NCBI GenBank assembly: GCA_035331565.1
Contig: DAOLKO010000019.1
Coordinates: 67,343-131,342, forward strand
Source of the DNA: Blastocatellia bacterium
GTDB lineage: Bacteria > Acidobacteriota > Blastocatellia > RBC074
Length of the DNA stretch: 64,000 nucleotides
Reading direction: 5' to 3'
A program made the position numbers and the translations under genes. The first letter of the stretch is position 1. Each line of letters starts with the position of its first letter. The notes beneath the pieces were generated by a model, which saw nothing but the letters and a program-made list of their open reading frames with translations, made no database searches and was not told the DNA's origin. Positions 35,319 to 53,610 of the stretch are shown piece by piece.

Positions 35319-37070
35319 ATGAAGCCTGCCGCAAGTGTAATCATTACCGCGGTGCTGAGCTTGATCTTTACATTTCTTGTTCGATCCGGCGCGCACCGAT
35401 TAGGAGTAGTCGCTGCTCCACGCAAAGACCGTTGGCATCAGAAGCCGACGGCTTTGATGGGCGGCATAGCGATTTATTTCTCCTTCCTTCTCGGCTCTTT
35501 TCTTTTCGCCCGTTCAATAAGTTGTTTCTACCCCATCCTGATTGCCGGCACGATTCTGTTCATCACCGGCGTGGTGGACGATCTGATTCAATTGAAGCCT
35601 TACATCAAACTGGTCATGCAGATTGTGGCTTCGTCCGTGATCGTCTATTGCGGCTTGTATCTGCATTGGACGGGCATTGAAGCGGCAGATTCCCTCATCA
35701 CAGTGTTCTGGCTTGTCGGCCTGACCAACGCCGTCAATCTGCTGGACAATATGGACGGTCTGGCCGGAGGCATTTCCGTCATCGCCAGTTTCTTTCTGGC
35801 GATCACCTTCTTGCTGAACGGGCAAATGGCCGAAGCCGTTCTGCCGTTGGTGCTGGCGGGCGCAGTGTTGGGTTTTCTGTATTTCAATTTCAATCCGGCT
35901 TCGATCTTTATGGGTGATTGCGGCTCGATGTTGCTGGGTTTGTCGTTGGGCGGAATCGCTTTGCTGAACGACATGGGACGGACGCGCAATCTGGCTGCGG
36001 TTTTTTCGACGCCGGTACTGATTCTGCTGATTCCCATCTTCGACACCTGCGTCGTCACCGTCACGCGCAAACTATCCGGTCGCCCTGTTTCGCAGGGCGG
36101 ACGCGACCACACGTCTCATCGTTTGGTGGCGCTGGGCATGTCCGAACGCCGCGCCGTGCTGACACTCTATTTGCTGGCGGCAGTTTCTGGAACGCTGGCC
36201 TTGCTCGTCCGGCAAATGCACATCGGCGCGAATCTGTTGCTGACTTCAGGCTTCGCGTTGACCATTCTGTTCATCGGTTTGTACCTGGGCAAAGTGCGCG
36301 TTCACGAAGGCGGCAACCCCGAAAGCAATACGCTGGTGAACGTCTTCGCCAGCCTGTCTCCGCGCCGTCGCATTTTTGAAATCCTGCTCGACCTTTGTTT
36401 GATAGTGCTGGCTTATTACGGCGCTTACCTGTTGCGCTTTGAACACGGCCTGCCGGACGAACAGTTGAAGGTTTTCATTCGCACGCTGCCGGTGGTGATT
36501 GCAGTTCAGATTTTATTGTTTCTGTTTGGCGGAGTTTATCGCGGCATCTGGCGATACGCGGGCGTGGATGATCTGGTCGTCATCGCCAAATCAGTGTTCA
36601 TAGGCGCGCTCATCAGCGGCGTAGGCGTGATGGCGCTCCACGGATTTCACGGCCCTTCGCGCGCGGTCTTTATTCTGGACGCCTTGCTGCTCTTGTTGTT
36701 TGTCGGAGCCAGCCGCCTGTCGTTCCGTTTGCTGGGGGCATTGTTCGTCGGCAAGCAAACTGCGCCTCCGAATTCAACGCCCGTCTTGATTTACGGCGCG
36801 GGCGACGGCGGAGAAATTCTGATTCGCGAATTGCTCAACAATCCCGCGCATCGCTATCAACCCGTCGGTTTCATTGACGACGACCGAAACAAAACCGGCC
36901 TGCTCATTCGCGGCTATCGCATCTTCAGCCGCGAAGATCTGCCCGAACTCATCAGCGAACACGGCGTCAGCGAAGTGCTTGTTTCCAGCTTCAAAGTCCC
37001 TGAAAGCAAGATCAACGATTTGCGCGGACTGGGCATCGGCTTCAAACGCCTGCGAATTCAACTTGAATAG
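35319..37070 (+). CDS. polyprenyl-phosphate HexNAc-1-phosphate transferase (WecA/WbpL/MraY-like) fused to a C-terminal CoA-binding-like Rossmann domain
   Basis: N-terminal ~330 aa are 10-11 TM with VNLLDNMDGLAGG and DxxD motifs, as in the MraY/WecA family. The C-terminal ~200 aa (PVLIYGAGDGGEILIRELLNN...YQPVGFIDDD) resemble the N-terminal domain of WbaP/PglF-type enzymes. Confidence 0.8.
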   Translation: MKPAASVIITAVLSLIFTFLVRSGAHRLGVVAAPRKDRWHQKPTALMGGIAIYFSFLLGSFLFARSISCFYPILIAGTILFITGVVDDLIQLKPYIKLVMQIVASSVIVYCGLYLHWTGIEAADSLITVFWLVGLTNAVNLLDNMDGLAGGISVIASFFLAITFLLNGQMAEAVLPLVLAGAVLGFLYFNFNPASIFMGDCGSMLLGLSLGGIALLNDMGRTRNLAAVFSTPVLILLIPIFDTCVVTVTRKLSGRPVSQGGRDHTSHRLVALGMSERRAVLTLYLLAAVSGTLALLVRQMHIGANLLLTSGFALTILFIGLYLGKVRVHEGGNPESNTLVNVFASLSPRRRIFEILLDLCLIVLAYYGAYLLRFEHGLPDEQLKVFIRTLPVVIAVQILLFLFGGVYRGIWRYAGVDDLVVIAKSVFIGALISGVGVMALHGFHGPSRAVFILDALLLLLFVGASRLSFRLLGALFVGKQTAPPNSTPVLIYGAGDGGEILIRELLNNPAHRYQPVGFIDDDRNKTGLLIRGYRIFSREDLPELISEHGVSEVLVSSFKVPESKINDLRGLGIGFKRLRIQLE

Positions 37071-40486: not shown

Positions 40487-40660
40487 ACAGGGATCGCACG
40501 GATTTAGCTTTGACAAAATGATGCCACGGGCTTGTCCCGTGGAGATTCACGCTTGGCGCTACCGTAGCCGTGGGGGCGTGAACCTCCAACGGAGTTGCCT
40601 TTGATCCTTTGTGTTGAAAAAGGCTTGATGCCGAACTGTCCCAACAAGGAGCCAATGCCA

Positions 40661-43600
40661 ATGAGCCAAACCGAAGCACTCGACCGCATCCAACGCGCCC
40701 GCTGGCGCAACGCCAAATGGCTGAACCTTTCCAAGCTCGACCTGATCGAACTGCCGCCGGAAATCGGCGAACTGACGGAATTGCGAGTGTTGTGGCTGAA
40801 CAACAATCGCCTGACCGAATTGCCGCCGGAAATCGGCAACCTGCGCGAACTCCGCGTGCTGCAAGCTTACGAAAATCAACTCACCGCCTTGCCACCGGAG
40901 ATTGGCCAACTGCGGAAACTTCAGCGTCTGATAACGCCCGGCAATGAAATCGCGCGACTGCCGGAAGAACTGGGGCAATTGACCGAATTGCAGGAATTGA
41001 ATCTCGGCGATTGGTTAGCGAAAAAAGGTCGGTTCCGCCATTTTCATTTGCAAGGCAACCAATTGAAAGAACTGCCTACCTCCCTGGAGAAGCTGACCAA
41101 CTTGCAATACCTCAATTTATCTAGCAACCAATTGAAAGAACTGCCTACCTCCATCGAGAAGCTAACCAACTTGTGGGGGCTTGATTTATCCGGTAACCAA
41201 TTAACAAAACTGCCCATCTCCATCGAGAAGCTGACCAACTTGAAGGTACTCGATTTGAACAGCAACCAACTGACCGAACTGCCCACCTCCATCGAGAAGT
41301 TGACCAACTTGCAGGTACTCTATTTGTCCAGCAACCAACTGACGGAACTGCCTTCGGAGATCGAAAACTTAGAGCAGTTGTGGCACATCAGCCTGGACAA
41401 CAATCCACTCGGATTTCCGCCGCTGAGCATTGCCAAGGGGGGAATGGAGGAGGTTCGGAATTATCTGGCGCAGGAAGTGGTGCCGCTTTGGGTGGCGAAA
41501 ATGGTGGTGGTGGGGCAGGGGCGTGTGGGGAAGACTTCGTTGTTGAAACGGCTTCGGGATGATGACTTTGACCAGGACCTGGATTCCACGCACGGAATGG
41601 ACGTTGACAGGCTGGTTTTGCCGCATCCGTCGTTGCCGGGTGTGGAAATGACTTTGAACACCTGGGATTTCGGCGGGCAGGATTTGTATCACGCCACGCA
41701 TCAGTTTTATCTGACCGACCGTTCGCTGTATTTGATTGTCTGGAACGCGGGCGAAAACTATCAGCAGGGCGGATTGCTTTACTGGCTGGACACCGTGAAG
41801 GCGCGCGCGCCCAAAGCCAAAATCATTCTGGTGGCCACGCACGCCGATCAGCGCACGCCGGACATTCCTTTTGACGAAATCCGCAAACAGTACGAGCCGA
41901 TGATCGCCGACAGGCTGTACCTGATGGACAACAAAAACGGAGCCGGGCGCGAAGACTTGCTGCGAGCCATTGCCGAAGCCGCCGCCGAATTGAAGATGAT
42001 GGGGCAAAAATGGCCAGTTCCCTGGACGCGCGCCACCGAAGCCATACGCGAACGCGCCAAAACCGAAAACCACATTACGCCGCATCAATTGACCGCGCTG
42101 TTGACCGAACAAGGTGTGGACGAAATCGGCCAACGCACGTTGACCCGATGGCTGCATCAATTGGGCGAGATTCTGTTTTACGACGAAGACCAATACGAAG
42201 AGTTGAACGACACGGTCATGCTCAATCCGCACTGGGTGAACCAAATCATCAGCCGTGTGCTGGACAGCAAAGAAGTCGAAGATAAAAAAGGCGTCTTCAC
42301 GCGCAAACACATGGAAGAGCTTTGGAAAGAGATCGAATCGCCGTTGCGCGAACATCTGTTGCGGCTGATGGATCAATTCGACCTTTCCTACAAAATCCCC
42401 GACGAAGATTTCAAACCCAAATCAAAAGACCGTGACCGCAGTCTGGTGGTCGAAAAACTGCCGCGCGAAGAAGCTGATTACCATTCGCTGTGGGAATCGA
42501 AAGCCGGCGAACGCGAAATCTCTCGAAAGCTGGAACTGGCCACACTGCTGCCGGGCATTCCCAGTTGGTTCATAGCCCGCGCGCACCGCTTCACCACTCG
42601 AACGCATTGGCGGTTGGGCGCGCTGTTCGAGGATGGGCCGGAGCGAAAACATCTGGCGCTGGTCAGAGCTTCGGCGACGGAAAAATGGGTGGCGCTTTCG
42701 GTTCGCGGGCCGTCGCCGCATAACTTTTTCGCGCTGCTCAGCGACAGCCTGATGAAAACCTTCGAGCGATTTCCGGGACTGGATTACAAAGTGAAAGTTC
42801 CGTGCTGTTGCAGTCCGAACTGTCCGAACGAATTTGAATTGGAAGATTTGGAAAGCGCCTATTCGCAAAACGTGCTGAACATTCCGTGCCTGAAAGCCAA
42901 ACCGATCAAACAGGCTTCGGTTCCGCAAATGCTGCTCGGCCAGCGCATTTCGCCGGAAGACCCGCTGTTGCTGTTGCGGGAAATCAAAGCCGACACCGAA
43001 CAGCTCAAAGCAGGAACAGCGCGAATCGAAATCGGCGTTTCGGAAAATCTGGCCTACCAACAACGCGAATTCACCAAGCTGTTCAACGCGCTGCAATCCG
43101 GCGAGGAAACGTATTGCCCGAACGTTTTCGCGCTGCGCACGGGCGGCGGCGACGGCAACATCATAGGTTTGCTGGAACCGATTCGCTCCGCGACGATGTG
43201 GGAACGAGTCCGCGAATCCGTCTGGAAGCGCAGTGTGGAATTGCAGCTTTATTGTCAGCAGCCAGGGCATTGGCATCCGGTCGGTTGCGAACGCGGCAAG
43301 ACCGATCCCGAAAGCGGTTTGTACCAAATCGAAATTGATTCGGAGTTTTTGCAAACCGTTGGGCCGTACTTGATTCGACTGTCCAAAGTGATGAAGTACG
43401 TGTTGCCAGCGCTGGGAATGTCGCTGCCGTGGATTGTGGACAAGGAACGTTACGAGAAGCTTTATAAAGCCGACCTCGAACGCTGGACGAAATTCGCCGA
43501 CGCCGCAGCCAAGACCATGCCGGAACTGTTCGATGAATCCGCCGCGTCGAAAGCCGGCAGAAAAATGAATCCGCGCTCCGCAGGCTTGGCCAGAGGGGAC

Positions 43601-43735
43601 GAATTGCGATTGCTGCGCAGCCTGCTGGCGCAAAAAGACCCCAATGGACGCTGGGGCAAGCTGCGCAGATTTATGACCAAAGAAGGGCATTGGCTGTGGC
43701 TGTGTTCAGAGCATTGGAAAGAGTATCAGGACTGA
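40661..43735 (+). CDS. ROCO-family protein: LRR - Roc (Ras-of-complex GTPase) - COR - uncharacterised ~380-aa Cys/His/Trp-rich C-terminal module
   Basis: AAGGAG RBS 9 nt upstream of the ATG. About 11 LRRs (LxxLPPEIGxLxxLxxLxLxxNxL); Roc P-loop GQGRVGKTSLLKRL with G3 DFGGQ and G4 THAD; a COR region follows. The C-terminal part (VPCCCSPNCPNEF..., YCPNVF..., YCQQPGHWHPVGCERG..., GHWLWLCSEHW) matches no domain I recognise. Confidence 0.85.
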   Translation: MSQTEALDRIQRARWRNAKWLNLSKLDLIELPPEIGELTELRVLWLNNNRLTELPPEIGNLRELRVLQAYENQLTALPPEIGQLRKLQRLITPGNEIARLPEELGQLTELQELNLGDWLAKKGRFRHFHLQGNQLKELPTSLEKLTNLQYLNLSSNQLKELPTSIEKLTNLWGLDLSGNQLTKLPISIEKLTNLKVLDLNSNQLTELPTSIEKLTNLQVLYLSSNQLTELPSEIENLEQLWHISLDNNPLGFPPLSIAKGGMEEVRNYLAQEVVPLWVAKMVVVGQGRVGKTSLLKRLRDDDFDQDLDSTHGMDVDRLVLPHPSLPGVEMTLNTWDFGGQDLYHATHQFYLTDRSLYLIVWNAGENYQQGGLLYWLDTVKARAPKAKIILVATHADQRTPDIPFDEIRKQYEPMIADRLYLMDNKNGAGREDLLRAIAEAAAELKMMGQKWPVPWTRATEAIRERAKTENHITPHQLTALLTEQGVDEIGQRTLTRWLHQLGEILFYDEDQYEELNDTVMLNPHWVNQIISRVLDSKEVEDKKGVFTRKHMEELWKEIESPLREHLLRLMDQFDLSYKIPDEDFKPKSKDRDRSLVVEKLPREEADYHSLWESKAGEREISRKLELATLLPGIPSWFIARAHRFTTRTHWRLGALFEDGPERKHLALVRASATEKWVALSVRGPSPHNFFALLSDSLMKTFERFPGLDYKVKVPCCCSPNCPNEFELEDLESAYSQNVLNIPCLKAKPIKQASVPQMLLGQRISPEDPLLLLREIKADTEQLKAGTARIEIGVSENLAYQQREFTKLFNALQSGEETYCPNVFALRTGGGDGNIIGLLEPIRSATMWERVRESVWKRSVELQLYCQQPGHWHPVGCERGKTDPESGLYQIEIDSEFLQTVGPYLIRLSKVMKYVLPALGMSLPWIVDKERYEKLYKADLERWTKFADAAAKTMPELFDESAASKAGRKMNPRSAGLARGDELRLLRSLLAQKDPNGRWGKLRRFMTKEGHWLWLCSEHWKEYQD
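41050..41335 (+). repeat. four tandem ~69-bp near-identical repeats encoding LRR units inside the ROCO gene
   Basis: Units caaccaattgaaagaactgcctacctccatcgagaagctgaccaacttg... recur at ~85-90% identity (protein: NQLKELPTSIEKLTNL x4-5). They also create the spurious minus-strand ORF 41044-41307. Confidence 0.7.
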
Positions 43736-43772
43736 AATTTCGTGATGTGCTGCGCACAAACCGAAGCTGCGG

Positions 43773-45437
43773 TTATCTGGGTGGGAGAATTTTCCAGCCG
43801 GAGAGTGCCTGGCGGTAAATTTCCTCGGCTTTTTGTTTGTCGCCGAGAGCGGCATAAACGCCTGCCAGCAGCGCCAGTGTGGCGGCTTCACGCTCCTGTT
43901 CTTTCAGTTCCCGCCAAAGCTTCAAACCTTGTTCGAGTTGTTCGCGCGCTTTTGATTTGTCATTGAGGACTGAATTCGTTTCGCCAAGCCCGGTCAGAAA
44001 AATCGCTTGCCGGGCTTTGTCTTTCAGTTTGAGCGCAAGTTCCAAACCTTGCTGATAAAGTTCCCGCGCCTTTGTTGGTTCGCCGGACATTTGATGAACC
44101 AGTCCCAGGTTGCCGAGGGTGATGGCTTCGCCGCGTTTGTCGCCGACATTGCGGCGGAGTTCGAGCGCCGGAATGTAATGTTCTTTGGCTTTTGCCAGCT
44201 CGCCTGAATCCACGAACAGGCCGCCGATGTTGTTCAGGGTTGTGGCTTCGCCGCGTTTATCGCCGATGGAGCGTCGCAAGGGCAGCGCCTGAAGGTAGAG
44301 CTTCAACGCTTCGTCGCGTTCTCCGAGCGCCAGTTGCAAACCGGCCAGATCGCTGATGGTAGTCGCTTCGGCGCGTTTGTCGCCGAGCGATTGCCAAAGC
44401 GGCAGGGCTTTTGAATAAAACACCACGGCGTTGGTTTTGTCGCCCAGCGCATCTGAGACAAATCCCAGATTACTCAAACTGACTGCTTCGCCGCGTTTGT
44501 CGCCGACCGTTCGCCACAAAGGCAACGCTTGTTGAAACATCTGCGCGGCCTGCGGAAATTGGCCGGCGCGGGCGGTCAGTCCGCCCAGACTGTTCAGCGC
44601 AGAGGCTTCGCCCGTCAGGTCTTTGCCTTCGTGCCAATAGGCATAGGCTTTTTGGTAATGATCGAAAGCCTGTTGGGCCAGGCCTTGCTCTTCGTAAACT
44701 TTGGCGAGGTTGAACAGCATCGTCGCTTCTCGCGTGTTGGGATTGTCGTTTTCGCCAACGGGAAGCGGTCGCCGCGTCAGATTGGACGCTCGAACTATCA
44801 GCCGCGCCTGATCGAAAAGGTGTTGCGCCTGCTGTTTGTCGCCGATGGAATTGTAGATGCGTCCCATTTGCGTAAGTGTGGCCGCTTCGTCCAGACGTTT
44901 GCCGGACGCGCGCCAGAGCGGCAGGGATTGGTGGTAATAACTGATGGCCTGTTGGCGATCTCCCAGAGCATCTGAAATGGAGGCGAGTTGATTGAGCGAA
45001 CCGGCCATTTCCGCCGGTTCGCTGAACCTGCCTGCCGCGCGCCAGGAACGCAGTGATTCTTCGTATTTGAGCGCGGCTTCTCGCAAGGCAGTGGCGGAGC
45101 CTTGCGCGCGCAAGGTCTCGGCTTCTTGTTGAAAGGTTTGCGCGGCCTGTTTGTGCTGTTCCGGCAAGGATGAGCTGGGGCGGGAATCCGCTTTGGCCGC
45201 CGACGTGCGCGGAACGTTGATGCGGTAAGAATAATCGTAAAGCCCTTCGATGGACGGTCGCGTCAGACGCGGAACCACTATCCGAAAGGAACCGAGTTCG
45301 AAGGGCGTAGCTTGTCGCGCCCCAGGCTGGGTTTCGGTTTGGGCGGTCGTTTGAATAAAGGCTATAACCAGGAAAATCCCTACCCGGAGGAAACACTGAG
45401 GGATTGAAAACGGATTGTGACGGCGCGGAAGGTACAT
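43773..45437 (-). CDS. secreted tetratricopeptide (TPR_10/TPR_12-type) repeat protein
   Basis: N-terminal signal/TM, then about 10 repeats of the pattern LxxLGxxxxxLGDKxxAxxxYxxALPLWR, i.e. TPR with a recurring GDKRGEA motif. It is convergent with the ROCO gene across a 37-nt gap. Confidence 0.8.
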   Translation of the reverse strand: MYLPRRHNPFSIPQCFLRVGIFLVIAFIQTTAQTETQPGARQATPFELGSFRIVVPRLTRPSIEGLYDYSYRINVPRTSAAKADSRPSSSLPEQHKQAAQTFQQEAETLRAQGSATALREAALKYEESLRSWRAAGRFSEPAEMAGSLNQLASISDALGDRQQAISYYHQSLPLWRASGKRLDEAATLTQMGRIYNSIGDKQQAQHLFDQARLIVRASNLTRRPLPVGENDNPNTREATMLFNLAKVYEEQGLAQQAFDHYQKAYAYWHEGKDLTGEASALNSLGGLTARAGQFPQAAQMFQQALPLWRTVGDKRGEAVSLSNLGFVSDALGDKTNAVVFYSKALPLWQSLGDKRAEATTISDLAGLQLALGERDEALKLYLQALPLRRSIGDKRGEATTLNNIGGLFVDSGELAKAKEHYIPALELRRNVGDKRGEAITLGNLGLVHQMSGEPTKARELYQQGLELALKLKDKARQAIFLTGLGETNSVLNDKSKAREQLEQGLKLWRELKEQEREAATLALLAGVYAALGDKQKAEEIYRQALSGWKILPPR

Positions 45438-50664: not shown

Positions 50665-53610
50665 TTAGAGTTTGGGTTCAATAACCTGTGTGATGCGTGG
50701 GATTTCCATGCTGGGAGTGGACAGAGATTGGCGTAACGCGGGCAGAGCTTCTGCCTGAAGTTCGGTCACGTTGGCGTAACGGCGAACGGGATTTTTGGCC
50801 AGGCATTTTTGCACGACGCGATTTAGCGGAGAGGTTTCCGGGATCGAACCCGGCAGTTGATAGTGTTGCTGGATGATGGCTTGGGCCAGTTCGTGAAAAT
50901 TGCGGCCTTGAAACGGACGTCGGCCCGTCAACATCTCAACCAGCATGACGCCGAGGGCGAAAATGTCGCCGCGTTCGCCGGCCGCTCCGCCCGCCAGCAG
51001 TTCCGGGGCCAGGTAATTGGGCGTTCCCATAATCATGCCGGGCGAAGTCAGCAGCAGACTTTCCGCGTTGTCCAGTTGCCGAAGTTTGGCAATTCCGAAA
51101 TCGAGCAATTTGATGACTGCTTGTTGGTCAGCCTGAAAAACCAAAAAGACGTTTTCCGGTTTCAAATCGCGATGAATGATGCCCGCGCGGTGCGCTGCAC
51201 CGACTCCTTCCAGGATTTGTCCGAACCAATCGGCAATCAACGGCGGCGGCAACGTGCCGCGTTCAGTCAGTACCTGACGCAGGGAACTGCCGCGCAAAAA
51301 CTCCATCACCAGGTAAGCGCCTTCCGCTCCGGCGCGTCCGTAATCATGCAACGCGACGATGTTCGGGTGATTCAATCGCGCGGACAAGCGGGCTTCCCGT
51401 TCAAACCGGCCCAGAGCTTCGCGGTTGCCGAACAATTCGCCGGTGATGATTTTGAGCGCCACCTGCCGATGCAGACGCAAGTCCGTGGCTTCATAAACCG
51501 CGCCCATTCCGCCTTTGCCGATCAGTTTTTCCAGTCGGTATTTGCCGTCCAGTGTGCGTTCAATCGGCAACGACAGCGTCAATGCCTGTCCGCAATCGTT
51601 GCAGTAAACCGCCGGGCTGTCGTAGCACAGGCCGCAATTCGGGCATTCTTTAATCAGGTTGATGCCGTCGCTGCTCAAATGCGCCAGCACCTGATGTTTG
51701 ATTTTCAATTCCTGATGGACTTGTTCTTTGAGCGCAAGGTTTTCGGTGACGACGGCCATTTGGCGTGCAACGGCTTGTAACAGGCCGCAGTCTTGCGCCG
51801 TGTACTCTTCTTCCGAAAGCTTTTCGCCGAGCATCAACAGCCCCAGCAATTTTTCCTCGGAACTTTTCAGCGGGACGATCAAACAAACGCCGAGGCTTGT
51901 CAGCCGGCGTTGTTCTCGCGCCGGAAATTCGCCGAATTGCGGCAAGGAAATGCCCAATTCTCCGGTTTGTCTTTCCAACGCATGCAGCAGCCCGATGCTC
52001 AATGGGATTTCCTGTTCCGGCGAGGTTTCGCCGGAACAATAGCTCAAGGCCAATTCATCTTTTCCGCCGACTCGGTGATACAGATATAACCGCGCCGGAT
52101 GAAGCGCATCCAGCAGTTGTCGGCCGACGAAGCCTGACATTTCAGGCAAGGCTTTGAATTGCTTGATCTTTTCCGACAGGCTGAGCAGCAATTGTTCGCG
52201 GTCATAAGCTTCGCGGAAAAAACGACGATCCACCCAATGTCTGACCTGTCGGCGGAATTTCAAGCTGAGTGCGGCCAACCCGATCAACAGCAGATTGGCG
52301 GGTTGTGAAAACAGCAGTTCCTTCAGAGTGCGGTTTGGATTGGCTCCGACGCTGAAAATCAGGCCGAGCAAGGGTAGCGCCAGAATCACGCCCAATACGT
52401 TTTTGGCCAGCAAGTATTGCAAGCCACGTCGTAACACCACATCCACTTCCAGCGCGCGATGTTTGAGAATGGCATACGCCCAGGCCACCGCCACAATCAA
52501 AGGCGAAATTTCTCCCAAAATGTTCAACGCCGTTACAGTCTGCCGAGCTTTGGTATCGTCCAAACCGGCGGCCAATGCCAGAAAGCGTGTTAAATACAGC
52601 AGGATGTTCGGAATGAACGCCGCCAGCGAACCGACGATCATCAATTTGATGCGATTCCGTTGATCGGCCTGCGTCACCCGGCGGTAGTTATGCAGGCAGA
52701 CCGCGCAGGTCGCCAGCAAACCCAGGACGATATAAGCATCGTTGGCCAGGCGCGTATTGCGGAAGAAAGTCAGGAGTGAGGCCGTCAGCGGAAGGCCGAA
52801 ATAGACCGCACCGACGCGGTAAAGGCCAACCGTGTAAATCGCTCCGCCCCAGGCCGGCAGTGTCCAACGGATTACTGACCAAAGTCGGGCAGACGGCGCT
52901 CCCGCCGGAAACGTGTAATAAAGATTGTAAGTCAGGGCGATAAAGAGCGTGGCACCGGAAATCAGAAACTGCGCAAACACCATCTGCAATCCTGTGCCGT
53001 CCAGCAGATAGGCCAGAAAGTCGGTGGCATTGGAATACAGATAGTTCAGCGAAAAGGTAATCATCGCGACGAAAGCCCAACGCGCGCTTCGGTCATAAGG
53101 TTTGAACAAGCCTATCAGCAGCGCCACGACGGCAAACGGAAAGGAGCAGAGAAAGGCACTGACAATTATTCGTAACCGCCTGCGTGCAAAGACGCTGCCA
53201 TCCGTTAATCGAAACGGCGTCATTTGCAGATCAACGGTTTTTTCGATTCCTTGCCGGACGATTCGCAAAGTGTAAATTGTCCCGGCGGGCTGCGCCTGAA
53301 CGGCGTATCTGACGGTTCGATCCCACTCAATCGGCAAAGTGATTGTTCCCCGGCTAACCGTAAGAACCTTGTCGTCCGGTAACAGCTTTCCCATTGCCGG
53401 CCCGTTCGGATCAATTTCCGTTACGAAAATGCCGTCTCCGCGACTTTCCAGTTGATAGCCGAATTTGTCCCATTGGCTGTATTGATACGTAATCAAAAAA
53501 TTGAACGCGAAGATACCCAAGGTCACCACGCCTGCAAGCGCGACAAACCAGAAAAACCAGGGTTGGCCACTCATCCTGGAAGGGATGTTACGAGTGGTCG
53601 TCTCAGGCAT
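50665..53610 (-). CDS. sensor Ser/Thr protein kinase: ~10-TM N-terminal membrane domain + GAF-like domain + C4 zinc ribbon + C-terminal Hanks kinase
   Basis: The kinase has GKGGMGAVY...ALK (VAIK-like), [14 protein letters not shown] and PNYLAPE. Upstream of it sits [20 protein letters not shown]. The N-terminal 400 aa are polytopic. AGGAGG RBS. Confidence 0.85.

What the first reader, a model, noticed from the sequence alone, without database searches (positions are those of the whole stretch)
40661..43735. Bacterial ROCO (LRR-Roc-COR) protein with an unassigned ~380-aa Cys/His/Trp-rich C-terminal module
The LRR + Roc GTPase + COR core is clear, but the output domain after COR matches nothing I recognise. 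It contains a CCC triplet (VPCCCSPNCPNEF) and three loosely repeated C/H/W-rich segments (YCPNVF..., YCQQPGHWHPVGCERG..., GHWLWLCSEHW). Roc-COR signalling NTPases are increasingly implicated in conflict and defence systems, where the C-terminal module is the effector. Here it sits at the edge of a large EPS locus, convergent with a TPR protein, which is typical accessory-island context. It is a candidate new effector or sensor domain.
Basis: partly seen in the sequence, partly recalled or inferred. Interest (0 to 1): 0.7.

Follow-up and report, generated by a model that had tools for sequence, protein, structure and literature searches.

The report
Bacterial ROCO GTPase with undescribed zinc-type tail
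This gene encodes a bacterial relative of the Parkinson's-disease protein LRRK2. Its last 270 residues form a widespread conserved domain, probably zinc-binding, that no database or published survey names and whose function is unknown.

Summary
The ORF at 40661-43735 (+) is real. It encodes a 1024-aa LRR-Roc-COR-A-COR-B protein identical to NCBI 'COR domain-containing protein [Blastocatellia bacterium]'.

About 107 of those residues, including the CCC triplet, are ordinary COR-B. The CCC triplet is a CxCx3C variant of a Cys/His knuckle found in most relatives.

The truly unassigned tail is residues 755-1024. It is not Cys/His-rich (4 Cys and 4 His in 270 aa), and the three motifs are not repeats. 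Those motifs are the most conserved positions of a real domain family. C865, H872, C1015 and H1018 are each 97-100% conserved across about 150 representatives, which fits one zinc site.

An exhaustive HMMER scan found 1269 clusters. The module is always C-terminal and was always behind Roc-COR in all 47 long hits, apart from one standalone copy. A helical stalk of 22-208 aa links it to COR-B, and stalk length varies with a 3.5-residue period.

The tail has no match in Pfam, NCBIfam, PADLOC, PDB or BFVD. There is no conserved neighbour gene and no defence-island signal.

Verdict: a new, unannotated C-terminal domain of a large ROCO clade. It is most likely a GTPase-positioned output or interaction module. 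An effector role is not excluded.

The parts
40646..40651 (+). Shine-Dalgarno-like AAGGAG, 9 nt upstream of the ATG start
   Evidence: Read directly from the sequence. The ATG at 40661 gives the same 1024-aa product as the NCBI records.
40661..43735 (+). ROCO gene (1024 aa plus stop): LRR-Roc-COR-A-COR-B-stalk-tail
   Evidence: ORF list, Pfam, exact match to NCBI HMV85077.1 'COR domain-containing protein [Blastocatellia bacterium]'.
40661..41446 (+). N-terminal leucine-rich repeats (residues 1 to about 262)
   Evidence: Pfam LRR_14 1.5e-35, LRR_4 1e-27, LRR_8 3.6e-25.
41498..41848 (+). Roc GTPase domain (residues 280-396). G1 GQGRVGKT at 285, G3 DFGGQ at 336, G4 THAD at 393.
   Evidence: Pfam Roc 3e-25; motif positions.
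42014..42448 (+). COR-A (residues 452-596)
   Evidence: Pfam PF16095 2.5e-32.
42512..42922 (+). COR-B (residues 618-754)
42800..42889 (+). Cys knuckle inside COR-B (P714-C743). Likely ligands are C715, C717, C721 and C743.
   Evidence: C715 in 96/97, C721 in 98/99, C743 in 107/107. The loop between the first two Cys carries His (CxGH) in 49 sequences, Cys (CxC) in 23, both in 5 and neither in 20, out of 97.
42962..43111 (+). Helical stalk (residues 768-817) linking COR-B to the globular tail
   Evidence: AF2 predicts one helix at model residues 69-118. The G760-to-Q801 spacer varies from 22 to 208 aa among relatives with a 3.5-residue period: Rayleigh R 0.37, n=110, 0 of 5000 null resamples reached this value. 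A control spacer gives R 0.11.
43112..43732 (+). Globular C-terminal domain (residues 818-1024). Mixed alpha/beta, no known family or fold match.
   Evidence: AF2 secondary structure, pLDDT 79.9 overall. 1269 HMMER clusters. No Pfam, PDB or BFVD match. A standalone homolog, P0027, exists.
43109..43129 (+). Motif 1, T-Y-C-P-N-V-F (C819, P820, F823)
   Evidence: C819 in 132/141, P820 in 141/141, F823 in 137/143.
43130..43240 (+). Clade-specific insertion 1 (residues 824-860). It is 37 aa here against a mode of 20 aa in the family. Low model confidence.
   Evidence: Spacer-length distribution. pLDDT about 52 for model residues 131-150.
43235..43279 (+). Motif 2, V-E-L-Q-L-Y-C-Q-Q-P-G-H-W-H-P (C865, H872)
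   Evidence: C865 in 149/149, H872 in 149/151, L863 in 146/149, P868 in 145/150.
43277..43321 (+). Clade-specific insertion 2 (residues 873-887). It is 15 aa here against a mode of 7 aa. It contains the non-conserved C876.
   Evidence: Spacer-length distribution. In the 11-sequence alignment this position is Y in most sequences.
43340..43435 (+). Hydrophobic Pro/Gly-kinked helical segment (residues 894-925; P902, P916, G919)
   Evidence: P902 in 142/156, P916 in 145/155. The best 19-aa Kyte-Doolittle window has a family median of 1.24. It reaches 1.6 or more in 19/146 and is 1.07 in the window protein.
43676..43714 (+). Motif 3, T-K-E-G-H-W-L-W-L-C-S-E-H. A beta-hairpin followed by a helix, carrying C1015 and H1018.
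   Evidence: T1006 in 142/149, E1008 in 136/149, W1013 in 138/149, C1015 in 146/148, H1018 in 145/148 with two H-to-C substitutions. Strands at 1002-1005 and 1011-1014, helix at 1016-1022.

Best explanation
The gene encodes a typical member of a large clade of bacterial LRR-Roc-COR (ROCO) GTPases. Members of this clade carry, after COR-B, a conserved and so far unnamed C-terminal unit. The unit has three parts:
1. A Cys/His knuckle at the very end of COR-B. In this protein the likely ligands are C715, C717, C721 and C743.
2. A single long helix, the stalk, whose length changes between relatives in whole helical turns.
3. An alpha/beta domain of about 205 aa held together by a second probable zinc site (C865, H872, C1015, H1018). 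It has a conserved hydrophobic Pro/Gly-kinked helix and a conserved polar patch (Q801, R802, Q812, Y888, D993, T1006, E1008).

Proposed mechanism (inferred, not shown): The stalk starts directly at the COR-B hairpin, which mediates the GTP-controlled dimer-monomer transition in C. tepidum Roco. The nucleotide state of Roc would therefore set the distance and orientation of the two tail domains. On this reading the tail is the output or interaction module of the switch, binding a partner or the membrane. The N-terminal repeats, which do vary, would provide input specificity.

Shown here: domain boundaries, family size, strict C-terminal position, restriction to Roc-COR, conservation of the C/H set, stalk periodicity, and the absence of known homologs.

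Inferred: zinc binding, coupling to the GTP cycle, and the output role.
For: - Architecture comes from Pfam.
- The tail profile finds 1269 clusters at E<=1e-3 and 455 at E<=1e-10 among 1.84 billion representatives. The match is always at the protein's C-terminal end.
- 47/47 long hits have Roc+COR-A+COR-B and 43/47 have LRR.
- Variation is N-terminal: DnaJ-ARC6-LRR, protein kinase, an unknown 600 aa, and LRR arrays of very different length.
- Of the 118 nearest Roc-COR clusters, 84 carry the complete tail. The rest look truncated or frameshifted.
- All 29 genome loci with a clear match (tblastn E<=1e-23) encode the tail in the same ORF as Roc-COR, across Acidobacteriota, Cyanobacteria, Chloroflexota, Parabeggiatoa, Armatimonadota and LCP-89.
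- Ligand-like conservation: the five positions C819/C865/H872/C1015/H1018 read CCHCH in 118 of the 132 rows complete at all five; H1018 is replaced by C twice, and C819 is dispensable in 9 rows. In the COR-B knuckle, His and Cys alternate as the loop ligand.
- Stalk: AF2 predicts a single 50-residue helix. Its length has a 3.5-residue periodicity, R 0.37, with 0 of 5000 null resamples as high. A control spacer shows none.
- A standalone homolog (P0027) sits behind an unrelated PKD-dockerin gene, which shows the globular part can exist as its own protein.
- In CtRoco the C-terminal part of COR-B mediates dimerisation and becomes disordered on GTP-driven monomerisation (PMC11052575).
Against: - No experiment or structure exists for this tail. 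Zinc binding is inferred from conservation only, and I could not read model coordinates to check that the ligands cluster.
- pTM is only 0.57, so the position of the tail relative to COR-B is not defined.
- The heptad signal in the stalk is weak: mean z 1.1, with only 21% of sequences above 2. A dimeric coiled coil is therefore not established.
- The periodicity test does not correct for relatedness among sequences.
- The tail of CtRoco itself (150 aa, unresolved in all structures) shows no sequence similarity to this profile. Transferring the CtRoco mechanism is therefore an extrapolation.
- A constant C-terminal domain is also what a clade-wide effector would look like.
Confidence: 0.45

Rival explanations
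1. The tail is the death or immune effector of a single-gene conflict system. The LRRs sense an invader, Roc-COR switches, and the C-terminal domain kills or arrests the cell. One route would be insertion of its hydrophobic Pro/Gly hairpin into the membrane. Another would be a metal-dependent enzymatic activity using H872, E1008 and D993.
For: - Kaur et al. 2021 place at least 24 alternative effector domains (TIR, caspase, GT4, EADs and others) at exactly this C-terminal position of bacterial LRR-AP-GTPase-COR proteins (PMC8195603).
- Paralogs occur within single MAGs: L005/L010, L003/L028 and L019/L023.
- The family is found in filamentous or complex bacteria such as Nostoc, Parabeggiatoa and Chloroflexia.
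- The hydrophobic segment reaches TM-like hydropathy in 19/146 members.
- The same published table lists about 147 'COR+TM+TM' proteins. Whether these are this family is untested.
- Conserved polar residues lie near the C/H cluster.
Against: - PADLOC does not hit the protein.
- Only a handful of 136 neighbour ORFs from 25 homolog loci hit any PADLOC model, and these are generic kinase- or ATPase-like models.
- No tRNA gene was found in the window, and no mobile-element or defence gene was seen among the 10 neighbouring ORFs scanned. The rest of the window was not scanned.
- Within this set the tail is never swapped for another domain and never appears on another NTPase.
- One member carries a TIR_2 domain as well as the tail, and another an N-terminal kinase. 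A second output domain makes the tail less likely to be the effector in those proteins.
- No catalytic motif is recognisable. E860 and Q862 are not conserved.
- The window protein's own hydrophobic segment scores only 1.07.
Confidence: 0.2
2. The tail is only a structural extension of COR, a 'COR-C'. It stabilises the dimer, or caps the Roc-COR core, and has no separate output or ligand.
For: - It co-occurs strictly with Roc-COR and is constant across the clade.
- It begins without a linker at the COR-B dimerisation hairpin.
- The conserved residues are dominated by C, H, P, G, L and W, as expected for a structural core.
- No conserved partner gene exists.
Against: - A standalone copy exists.
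- The stalk, 22-208 aa long, holds the domain away from COR rather than on it, and its helical phase is preserved.
- Several surface-type polar residues are more than 90% conserved: Y888, D993, T1006, E1008.
- Other ROCO clades, including CtRoco, function without this tail.
Confidence: 0.2
3. The tail is a sensor. The Cys/His cluster binds a metal or reacts with oxidants, and reports this to the GTPase through the stalk. On this reading the LRRs are the output scaffold.
For: - A conserved C/H cluster is present.
- A rigid, phase-preserving helical linker is typical of signal-transmitting stalks.
- Neighbours in some loci are redox proteins, namely globins and Cu-monooxygenase/cytochrome c-like proteins. 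The window gene follows a DUF7133-HEAT protein whose ORF translation ends in a CxxCH motif.
Against: - The neighbours are not conserved across the family.
- Four fully conserved ligands, with a conservative H-to-C swap, look like a structural zinc site rather than a labile sensory site.
- No ligand-binding family matches the tail.
Confidence: 0.1

Closest known systems
Chlorobaculum tepidum Roco (CtRoco; PDB 3DPU, 3DPT, 6HLU, 8R4B), the prokaryotic LRR-Roc-COR model protein
   Different: Neither of two tail profiles detects CtRoco in the PDB sequence set. The pairwise alignment stops at residue 722. This tail is longer, at 270 aa, and contains the stalk plus the CHCH motif set. Whether the two tails are distant homologs could not be tested.
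Bacterial 'LRR + AP-GTPase + COR + variable C-terminal effector' proteins of Kaur, Iyer, Burroughs and Aravind 2021 (eLife 10:e70394)
   Same: The backbone and position are the same: LRR in front, Roc (AP-GTPase) and COR in the middle, and a further module at the C-terminus. Paralogs occur within a genome, and the proteins are found in multicellular or filamentous bacteria.
   Different: That census lists two tail-bearing family members simply as 'LRR-repeats+AP-GTPase+COR', so the tail is not one of its named domains. These are EDN68964.1 (= P0188) and WP_020496162.1 (= P0204). Here the C-terminal module is constant and the N-terminus varies. No defence-island context was found.
Human LRRK2, LRRK1 and DAPK1 (eukaryotic ROCO proteins)
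   Same: They share the Roc-COR core: phmmer about 3e-36 to LRRK2 over residues 130-614. An output module is attached next to the core.
   Different: The eukaryotic outputs are a kinase plus WD40 (LRRK1/2) or a death domain (DAPK1). No kinase, WD40 or death-like domain is detected in this tail.
Small structural zinc modules (zinc knuckle, zinc ribbon, C2H2-like beta-beta-alpha)
   Same: Four conserved Cys/His positions have short local spacings: C-x6-H and C-x2-H in the tail, and C-x-C-x3-C or C-x2-H-x4-C plus a distal Cys in COR-B. The last motif sits on a beta-hairpin followed by a helix.
   Different: The tail ligands are about 150 residues apart in sequence and embedded in a 205-aa alpha/beta domain. 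Only weak, sporadic Pfam zinc-finger hits were found: zf-Nse in 4/62 and zf-CCHC_2 in 3/62, at sub-threshold E-values. Metal binding is untested.

Membership tests
ROCO (Roc-COR) GTPase family, group 1 (LRR-Roc-COR) | Ras-like Roc G domain with intact G1, G3 and G4 motifs | tested here: met
   Pfam Roc 3e-25 at residues 280-396. GQGRVGKT at 285, DFGGQ at 336, THAD at 393.
ROCO (Roc-COR) GTPase family, group 1 (LRR-Roc-COR) | COR domain (COR-A plus COR-B) directly C-terminal of Roc | tested here: met
ROCO (Roc-COR) GTPase family, group 1 (LRR-Roc-COR) | N-terminal leucine-rich repeats | tested here: met
   LRR_14 1.5e-35, LRR_4 1e-27, LRR_8 3.6e-25.
ROCO (Roc-COR) GTPase family, group 1 (LRR-Roc-COR) | GTP binding and hydrolysis, and nucleotide-dependent dimer-monomer cycle | not testable with these tools
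   This needs biochemistry. It is known only for CtRoco (PMC11052575, PMC5714945).
Bacterial AP-GTPase conflict systems (Kaur et al. 2021) | C-terminal position occupied by a recognised effector domain (TIR, caspase, GT4, DRHyd, trypsin, FGS, EAD) | tested here: not met
   No Pfam or PADLOC family matches residues 755-1024 in the window protein or in 62 relatives.
Bacterial AP-GTPase conflict systems (Kaur et al. 2021) | Several paralogs per genome | tested here: inconclusive
   Two loci each were found in three MAGs (CADECP01, JBDTUN01, NBMI01). The window itself holds one copy. The whole genome of the source organism was not available.
Bacterial AP-GTPase conflict systems (Kaur et al. 2021) | Rapidly diversifying LRR sensor | not tested
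   LRR length clearly varies among relatives (proteins of 800-1618 aa). No rate analysis was done.
Known anti-phage defence systems (PADLOC-DB 2.0) | Protein matches a defence-system model, or sits among defence genes | tested here: not met
   The protein has 0 PADLOC hits. Only a few of 136 neighbour ORFs in 25 homolog loci hit any model, all generic families.
Structural zinc-binding domain | Four conserved Cys/His ligands | tested here: met
   C865 in 149/149, H872 in 149/151, C1015 in 146/148, H1018 in 145/148, with H1018-to-C in two sequences. COR-B knuckle: C715, C721 and C743 at 99% or more, with a His or Cys loop ligand.
Structural zinc-binding domain | Ligands converge in space and bind a metal | not testable with these tools
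   Model coordinates are not readable here. Metal analysis is needed.
   Only L001 (tail 91% identical) keeps the TPR and OMP neighbours. No gene cluster is shared by more than 4 of 30 loci.

The most novel reading that the evidence does not exclude
The tail is a new kind of GTPase-gated cell-killing or membrane-acting effector. On activation of the LRR-Roc-COR switch, the stalk would reposition two zinc-stabilised tail domains so that their conserved hydrophobic Pro/Gly hairpins insert into the membrane. The alternative is that a C/H-centred site becomes catalytically active. If so, this would be the commonest output module of bacterial ROCO immune-like receptors, and the published 'COR+TM+TM' class would be the same thing.
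Probability: 0.12. Interest if true: 0.75.

Novelty: new variant of a known kind. Interest (0 to 1): 0.45.

Why it matters
Bacterial ROCO proteins are the structural models for LRRK2, yet their biological output is unknown. The standard description of them is just 'LRR-Roc-COR'.

This work shows that a large clade (at least 1269 clusters at 50% identity, in several phyla and in cultured Nostoc and Sciscionella, plus Beggiatoa sp. PS) carries a further conserved domain on a phase-preserving stalk. The domain is probably zinc-binding. It is missing from Pfam, NCBIfam and PADLOC, has no PDB counterpart, and is unnamed in the most detailed published census.

Naming and delimiting this domain gives the field a concrete handle. 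Construct boundaries, four ligand residues and a conserved polar patch are now available for mutation. That makes it possible to ask what a prokaryotic ROCO switch actually controls.

Tried and rejected
- First AF2 run, on the tail alone with 11 sequences, was unusable (pLDDT 46.6). It was replaced by a 62-sequence run.
- The afdb50 fold library was not available. No comparison with the AlphaFold database was possible.
The narrower A2 was used instead.
- 'Three loose repeats': rejected. The motifs align as distinct columns, and no internal repeat appears in the alignments.
- RelA/SpoT-like nucleotidyltransferase idea. This came from several very weak Foldseek hits to small alarmone synthetases and the look of 'ELQLYCQ' against 'EIQIRT'. 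It was rejected: probabilities were 0.01-0.08 with TM about 0.1, and E860 and Q862 are not conserved.
- Death-like or EAD helical bundle: no Pfam hit in 62 tails at E<=1.
- Operon partner: none found. Downstream genes in subsets of loci are globins, CAP/TIG proteins or Cu-monooxygenase-like proteins.
- Short database hits as 'standalone' tails: most are fragments. P0153 is a fragmented ROCO. P0038 and P0091 lie at contig ends. Only P0027 stands.
- Promoter and terminator scan around the gene: nothing above shuffle expectation.
- Coiled-coil heptad test of the stalk: only a weak signal.


Full report
**1. The observation**

The window has one long ORF on the + strand from a TTG at 40595 to the stop at 43735. 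The ATG at 40661 lies 9 nt after an AAGGAG at 40646-40651. It gives a 1024-aa product that is present, residue for residue, in NCBI as 'COR domain-containing protein [Blastocatellia bacterium]' (HMV85077.1 and others).

Pfam gives N-terminal LRRs (LRR_14 1.5e-35), Roc at 280-396 (3e-25), COR-A at 452-596 (2.5e-32) and COR-B at 618-754 (1.2e-21). The G1 (GQGRVGKT), G3 (DFGGQ) and G4 (THAD) motifs are intact. The closest solved structures are LRR proteins and the C. tepidum Roco protein (6hlu_A, 4.9e-59, aligned over residues 130-721), followed by LRRK2. The ROCO core is confirmed.

**2.

- The '~380 aa' (670-1046, counted from the TTG) includes about 107 residues of COR-B. The region without any Pfam, NCBIfam or PADLOC match is 755-1024, which is 270 aa.
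- The CCC triplet (C715-C717) lies inside the COR-B match.
- The tail has 4 Cys and 4 His (1.5% each) and 3.3% Trp, so it is not Cys/His-rich.
- The three quoted segments are not repeats. In alignments they are three different, highly conserved motifs.

**3. The tail is a real and large domain family**

A word-indexed search with the tail found only 10 close metagenomic relatives. A profile of those was then scanned exhaustively against 1.84 billion representative proteins. It found 1269 clusters at E<=1e-3 and 455 at E<=1e-10, with the match always at the extreme C-terminus.

All 47 hits of 800 aa or more have Roc, COR-A and COR-B, and 43 have LRRs. Where architecture differs, it differs at the N-terminus: DnaJ-ARC6-LRR, a protein kinase, an unassigned 600 aa, or much longer LRR arrays. 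One member also has a TIR_2 domain.

The reverse test gave the same picture. Of the 118 nearest relatives of the Roc-COR part alone, 84 have the complete tail, 13 a partial one, 16 stop at COR-B and 5 show frameshift remnants.

In one-genome-per-species contigs, 30 loci were found. In all 29 with a clear match (tblastn E<=1e-23) the tail follows Roc-COR in the same reading frame. They come from Acidobacteriota/Blastocatellia (closest; L001 tail 91% identical), Nostoc, Parabeggiatoa, Anaerolineae, Chloroflexia, Armatimonadota and LCP-89. Three MAGs have two copies. The weakest locus is from a Verrucomicrobiaceae MAG and matches only 99 tail residues at 26% identity.

Cultured-organism members include Sciscionella marina WP_020496162.1 and Nostoc sp. 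FACHB-888 WP_190727845.1.

One convincing standalone copy exists (P0027, 274 aa). It lies behind an unrelated PKD-dockerin gene, with stops in all frames between the two genes. Other short hits are fragments.

**4. Anatomy**

With a 62-sequence alignment, AlphaFold2 gave a usable model of residues 700-1024 (pLDDT 79.9, pTM 0.57).

  - It contains a Cys knuckle: C715 (96/97), C721 (98/99) and C743 (107/107).
  - The loop between the first two Cys carries a His (CxGH) in 49 sequences, a Cys (CxC) in 23, both in 5 and neither in 20, out of 97.
  - The window's CCCSPNC is the CxC variant.
- **Residues 768-817** form one long helix.
  - Between the conserved anchors G760 and Q801 the spacer ranges from 22 to 208 residues. 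Preferred lengths are 27/28, 31, 34/35, 38, 41/42, 45, 48/49 and 52.
  - The strongest period is 3.5 residues (Rayleigh R 0.37, n=110). None of 5000 smoothed resamples reached this value.
  - A control spacer inside the globular part gives R 0.11.
  - The heptad hydrophobic signal is weak (mean z 1.1). I therefore call it a phase-preserving helical stalk, not a proven coiled coil. The test does not correct for shared ancestry.
- **Residues 818-1024** form a mixed alpha/beta domain. Strands lie at 823-827, 857-865, 887-892, 1002-1005 and 1011-1014. Helices lie at 894-918, 928-952, 979-992 and 1016-1022.
  - The most conserved positions are P820 (141/141), C865 (149/149), H872 (149/151), Y888 (149/152), D993 (146/151), L1001 (149/150), T1006 (142/149), E1008 (136/149), C1015 (146/148) and H1018 (145/148).
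  - C819 is conserved in 132/141 and is replaced by V, T, S or F in nine sequences. H1018 is replaced by Cys twice.
  - The simplest reading is a C865/H872/C1015/H1018 zinc site that ties the N- and C-terminal halves of the domain together.
- **Residues 894-925** form a conserved hydrophobic segment with invariant-like prolines. Its median best 19-residue hydropathy is 1.24. It reaches 1.6 or more in 19/146 members and is 1.07 in the window protein.
- **Clade-specific insertions.** The window protein and its acidobacterial relatives carry two: 824-860 (37 aa against a mode of 20) and 873-887 (15 aa against a mode of 7). The second holds the non-conserved C876.

**5. No known relative**

- Pfam scans of 62 tails at E<=1 return only COR-B on the first 55 residues, plus sporadic sub-threshold noise.
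- Profile searches of all PDB sequences return nothing meaningful, not even CtRoco.
- Foldseek against PDB and against BFVD has no hit at E<=1e-3.
- The AlphaFold-database library was unavailable.

**6. Context**

Upstream lie polysaccharide-type genes: asparagine synthase, a GT1-family glycosyltransferase, an epimerase and a WecA-like transferase. Next comes a DUF7133-HEAT protein whose ORF translation ends in a CxxCH motif. Downstream and convergent lie a TPR protein, an OMP beta-barrel, an M20 peptidase, an amidohydrolase and a Ser/Thr kinase.

Only the 91%-identical ortholog locus L001 keeps the TPR and OMP neighbours. It has an extra PQQ/BamB-like ORF inserted between the ROCO and TPR genes.

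Across the 30 loci, no neighbour family occurs in more than four. Those that recur are globins, CAP/TIG proteins and Cu-monooxygenase-like proteins.

PADLOC does not hit the protein. It hits only a few of 136 neighbour ORFs from 25 loci, through generic models. The window has no tRNA gene and no second copy of the gene. The 'accessory or defence island' reading therefore has no support, and neither does 'housekeeping synteny'.

**7. Literature**

- The Roco review describes all prokaryotic Rocos as LRR-RocCOR only (PMC6337361).
- In CtRoco the last 150 residues have never been resolved, and the C-terminal part of COR-B is the GTP-sensitive dimerisation element (PMC11052575).
- Kaur et al. 2021 treat bacterial LRR-AP-GTPase-COR proteins as conflict systems with at least 24 alternative C-terminal effectors (PMC8195603).
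- Their source table lists EDN68964.1 and WP_020496162.1 as 'LRR-repeats+AP-GTPase+COR'. Both carry the full tail. The tail is therefore unnamed in that census.
- The same table has about 147 'COR+TM+TM' and about 92 'COR+DUF4404' entries. These might be this tail's hydrophobic hairpin and stalk under other names. I could not verify this.

**8. Interpretation**

Firmly shown: this is an ordinary member of a large ROCO clade. That clade has an undescribed C-terminal unit made of a knuckle, a stalk and a domain of about 205 aa with a CHCH motif set. The unit is restricted to Roc-COR proteins apart from a rare standalone copy.

My best mechanistic reading (confidence 0.45) is that the tail is the output or interaction module. 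Its spacing and orientation would be set by the nucleotide-dependent behaviour of the COR-B hairpin from which the stalk emerges.

Rivals:
- A true effector, membrane-acting or enzymatic (0.2).
- A purely structural COR extension (0.2).
- A metal or redox sensor (0.1).

The constant C-terminus, the variable N-terminus and the missing defence context argue against a shuffled effector, but they do not exclude a clade-wide one.

**9. Verdict**

Novelty: a new variant of a known kind, namely a ROCO protein with a new, widespread, unannotated C-terminal domain. Interest is moderate at 0.45. It gives the Roco field a defined, mutable handle on the unknown output of prokaryotic Rocos, but nothing here is mechanistically surprising yet.

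Noticed in passing
window 36874/37177-40377 (+): A protein of about 1066-1167 aa with DUF7133, HEAT repeats and a C-terminal CxxCH haem-binding-type motif lies directly upstream of the ROCO gene. The longest ORF (TTG at 36874) overlaps the end of the preceding glycosyl-transferase gene (35319-37070), so its true start is uncertain.
   Followed up: partly
L001 2854-4242 (+), compared with window 43735-43773: The closest ortholog locus (tail 91% identical) has a 462-aa PQQ/BamB-like beta-propeller ORF between the ROCO and TPR genes. In the window these two genes are only 37 bp apart. This is an indel between near relatives.
   Followed up: partly
L031 2154-2978 (protein P0027): A standalone 274-aa homolog of the globular tail has its own N-terminal stretch of about 78 aa with no database match. 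It is encoded after an unrelated PKD-dockerin gene. It is the only convincing case of the domain outside a ROCO protein.
   Followed up: partly
L034 723-3581 and 4920-5258: A ROCO gene is broken into several small consecutive ORFs, one still scoring as COR-B, followed by the tail ORF P0153. A TrwC relaxase fragment lies on the same contig. This may be a decaying copy on a mobile element.
   Followed up: no
Kaur et al. 2021 (PMC8195603), Figure 6 source data: [quoted passage not shown] The tail's hydrophobic Pro/Gly hairpin and its stalk helix could be what was called TM+TM and DUF4404. No accession could be checked against the tail profile.
   Followed up: no
window 50665-53610 (-): A 981-aa Ser/Thr protein kinase has its kinase domain at residues 691-946. 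The first 690 residues or so have no Pfam match at E<=1e-5.
   Followed up: no
L005/L007/L014/L004, immediately downstream of their ROCO genes: In one acidobacterial subclade (tail about 52% identical), a two-domain bacterial-globin protein follows the ROCO gene on the same strand, about 300-600 nt downstream. This is local synteny only and is absent from the window.
   Followed up: partly
record titles of L001, L002, L011, L014, L015: Several MAGs whose ROCO genes are closest to this Blastocatellia sequence are titled 'Heliomicrobium sp.' or 'Heliobacteriaceae'. This looks like a naming inconsistency in the public records rather than real Firmicutes.
   Followed up: no
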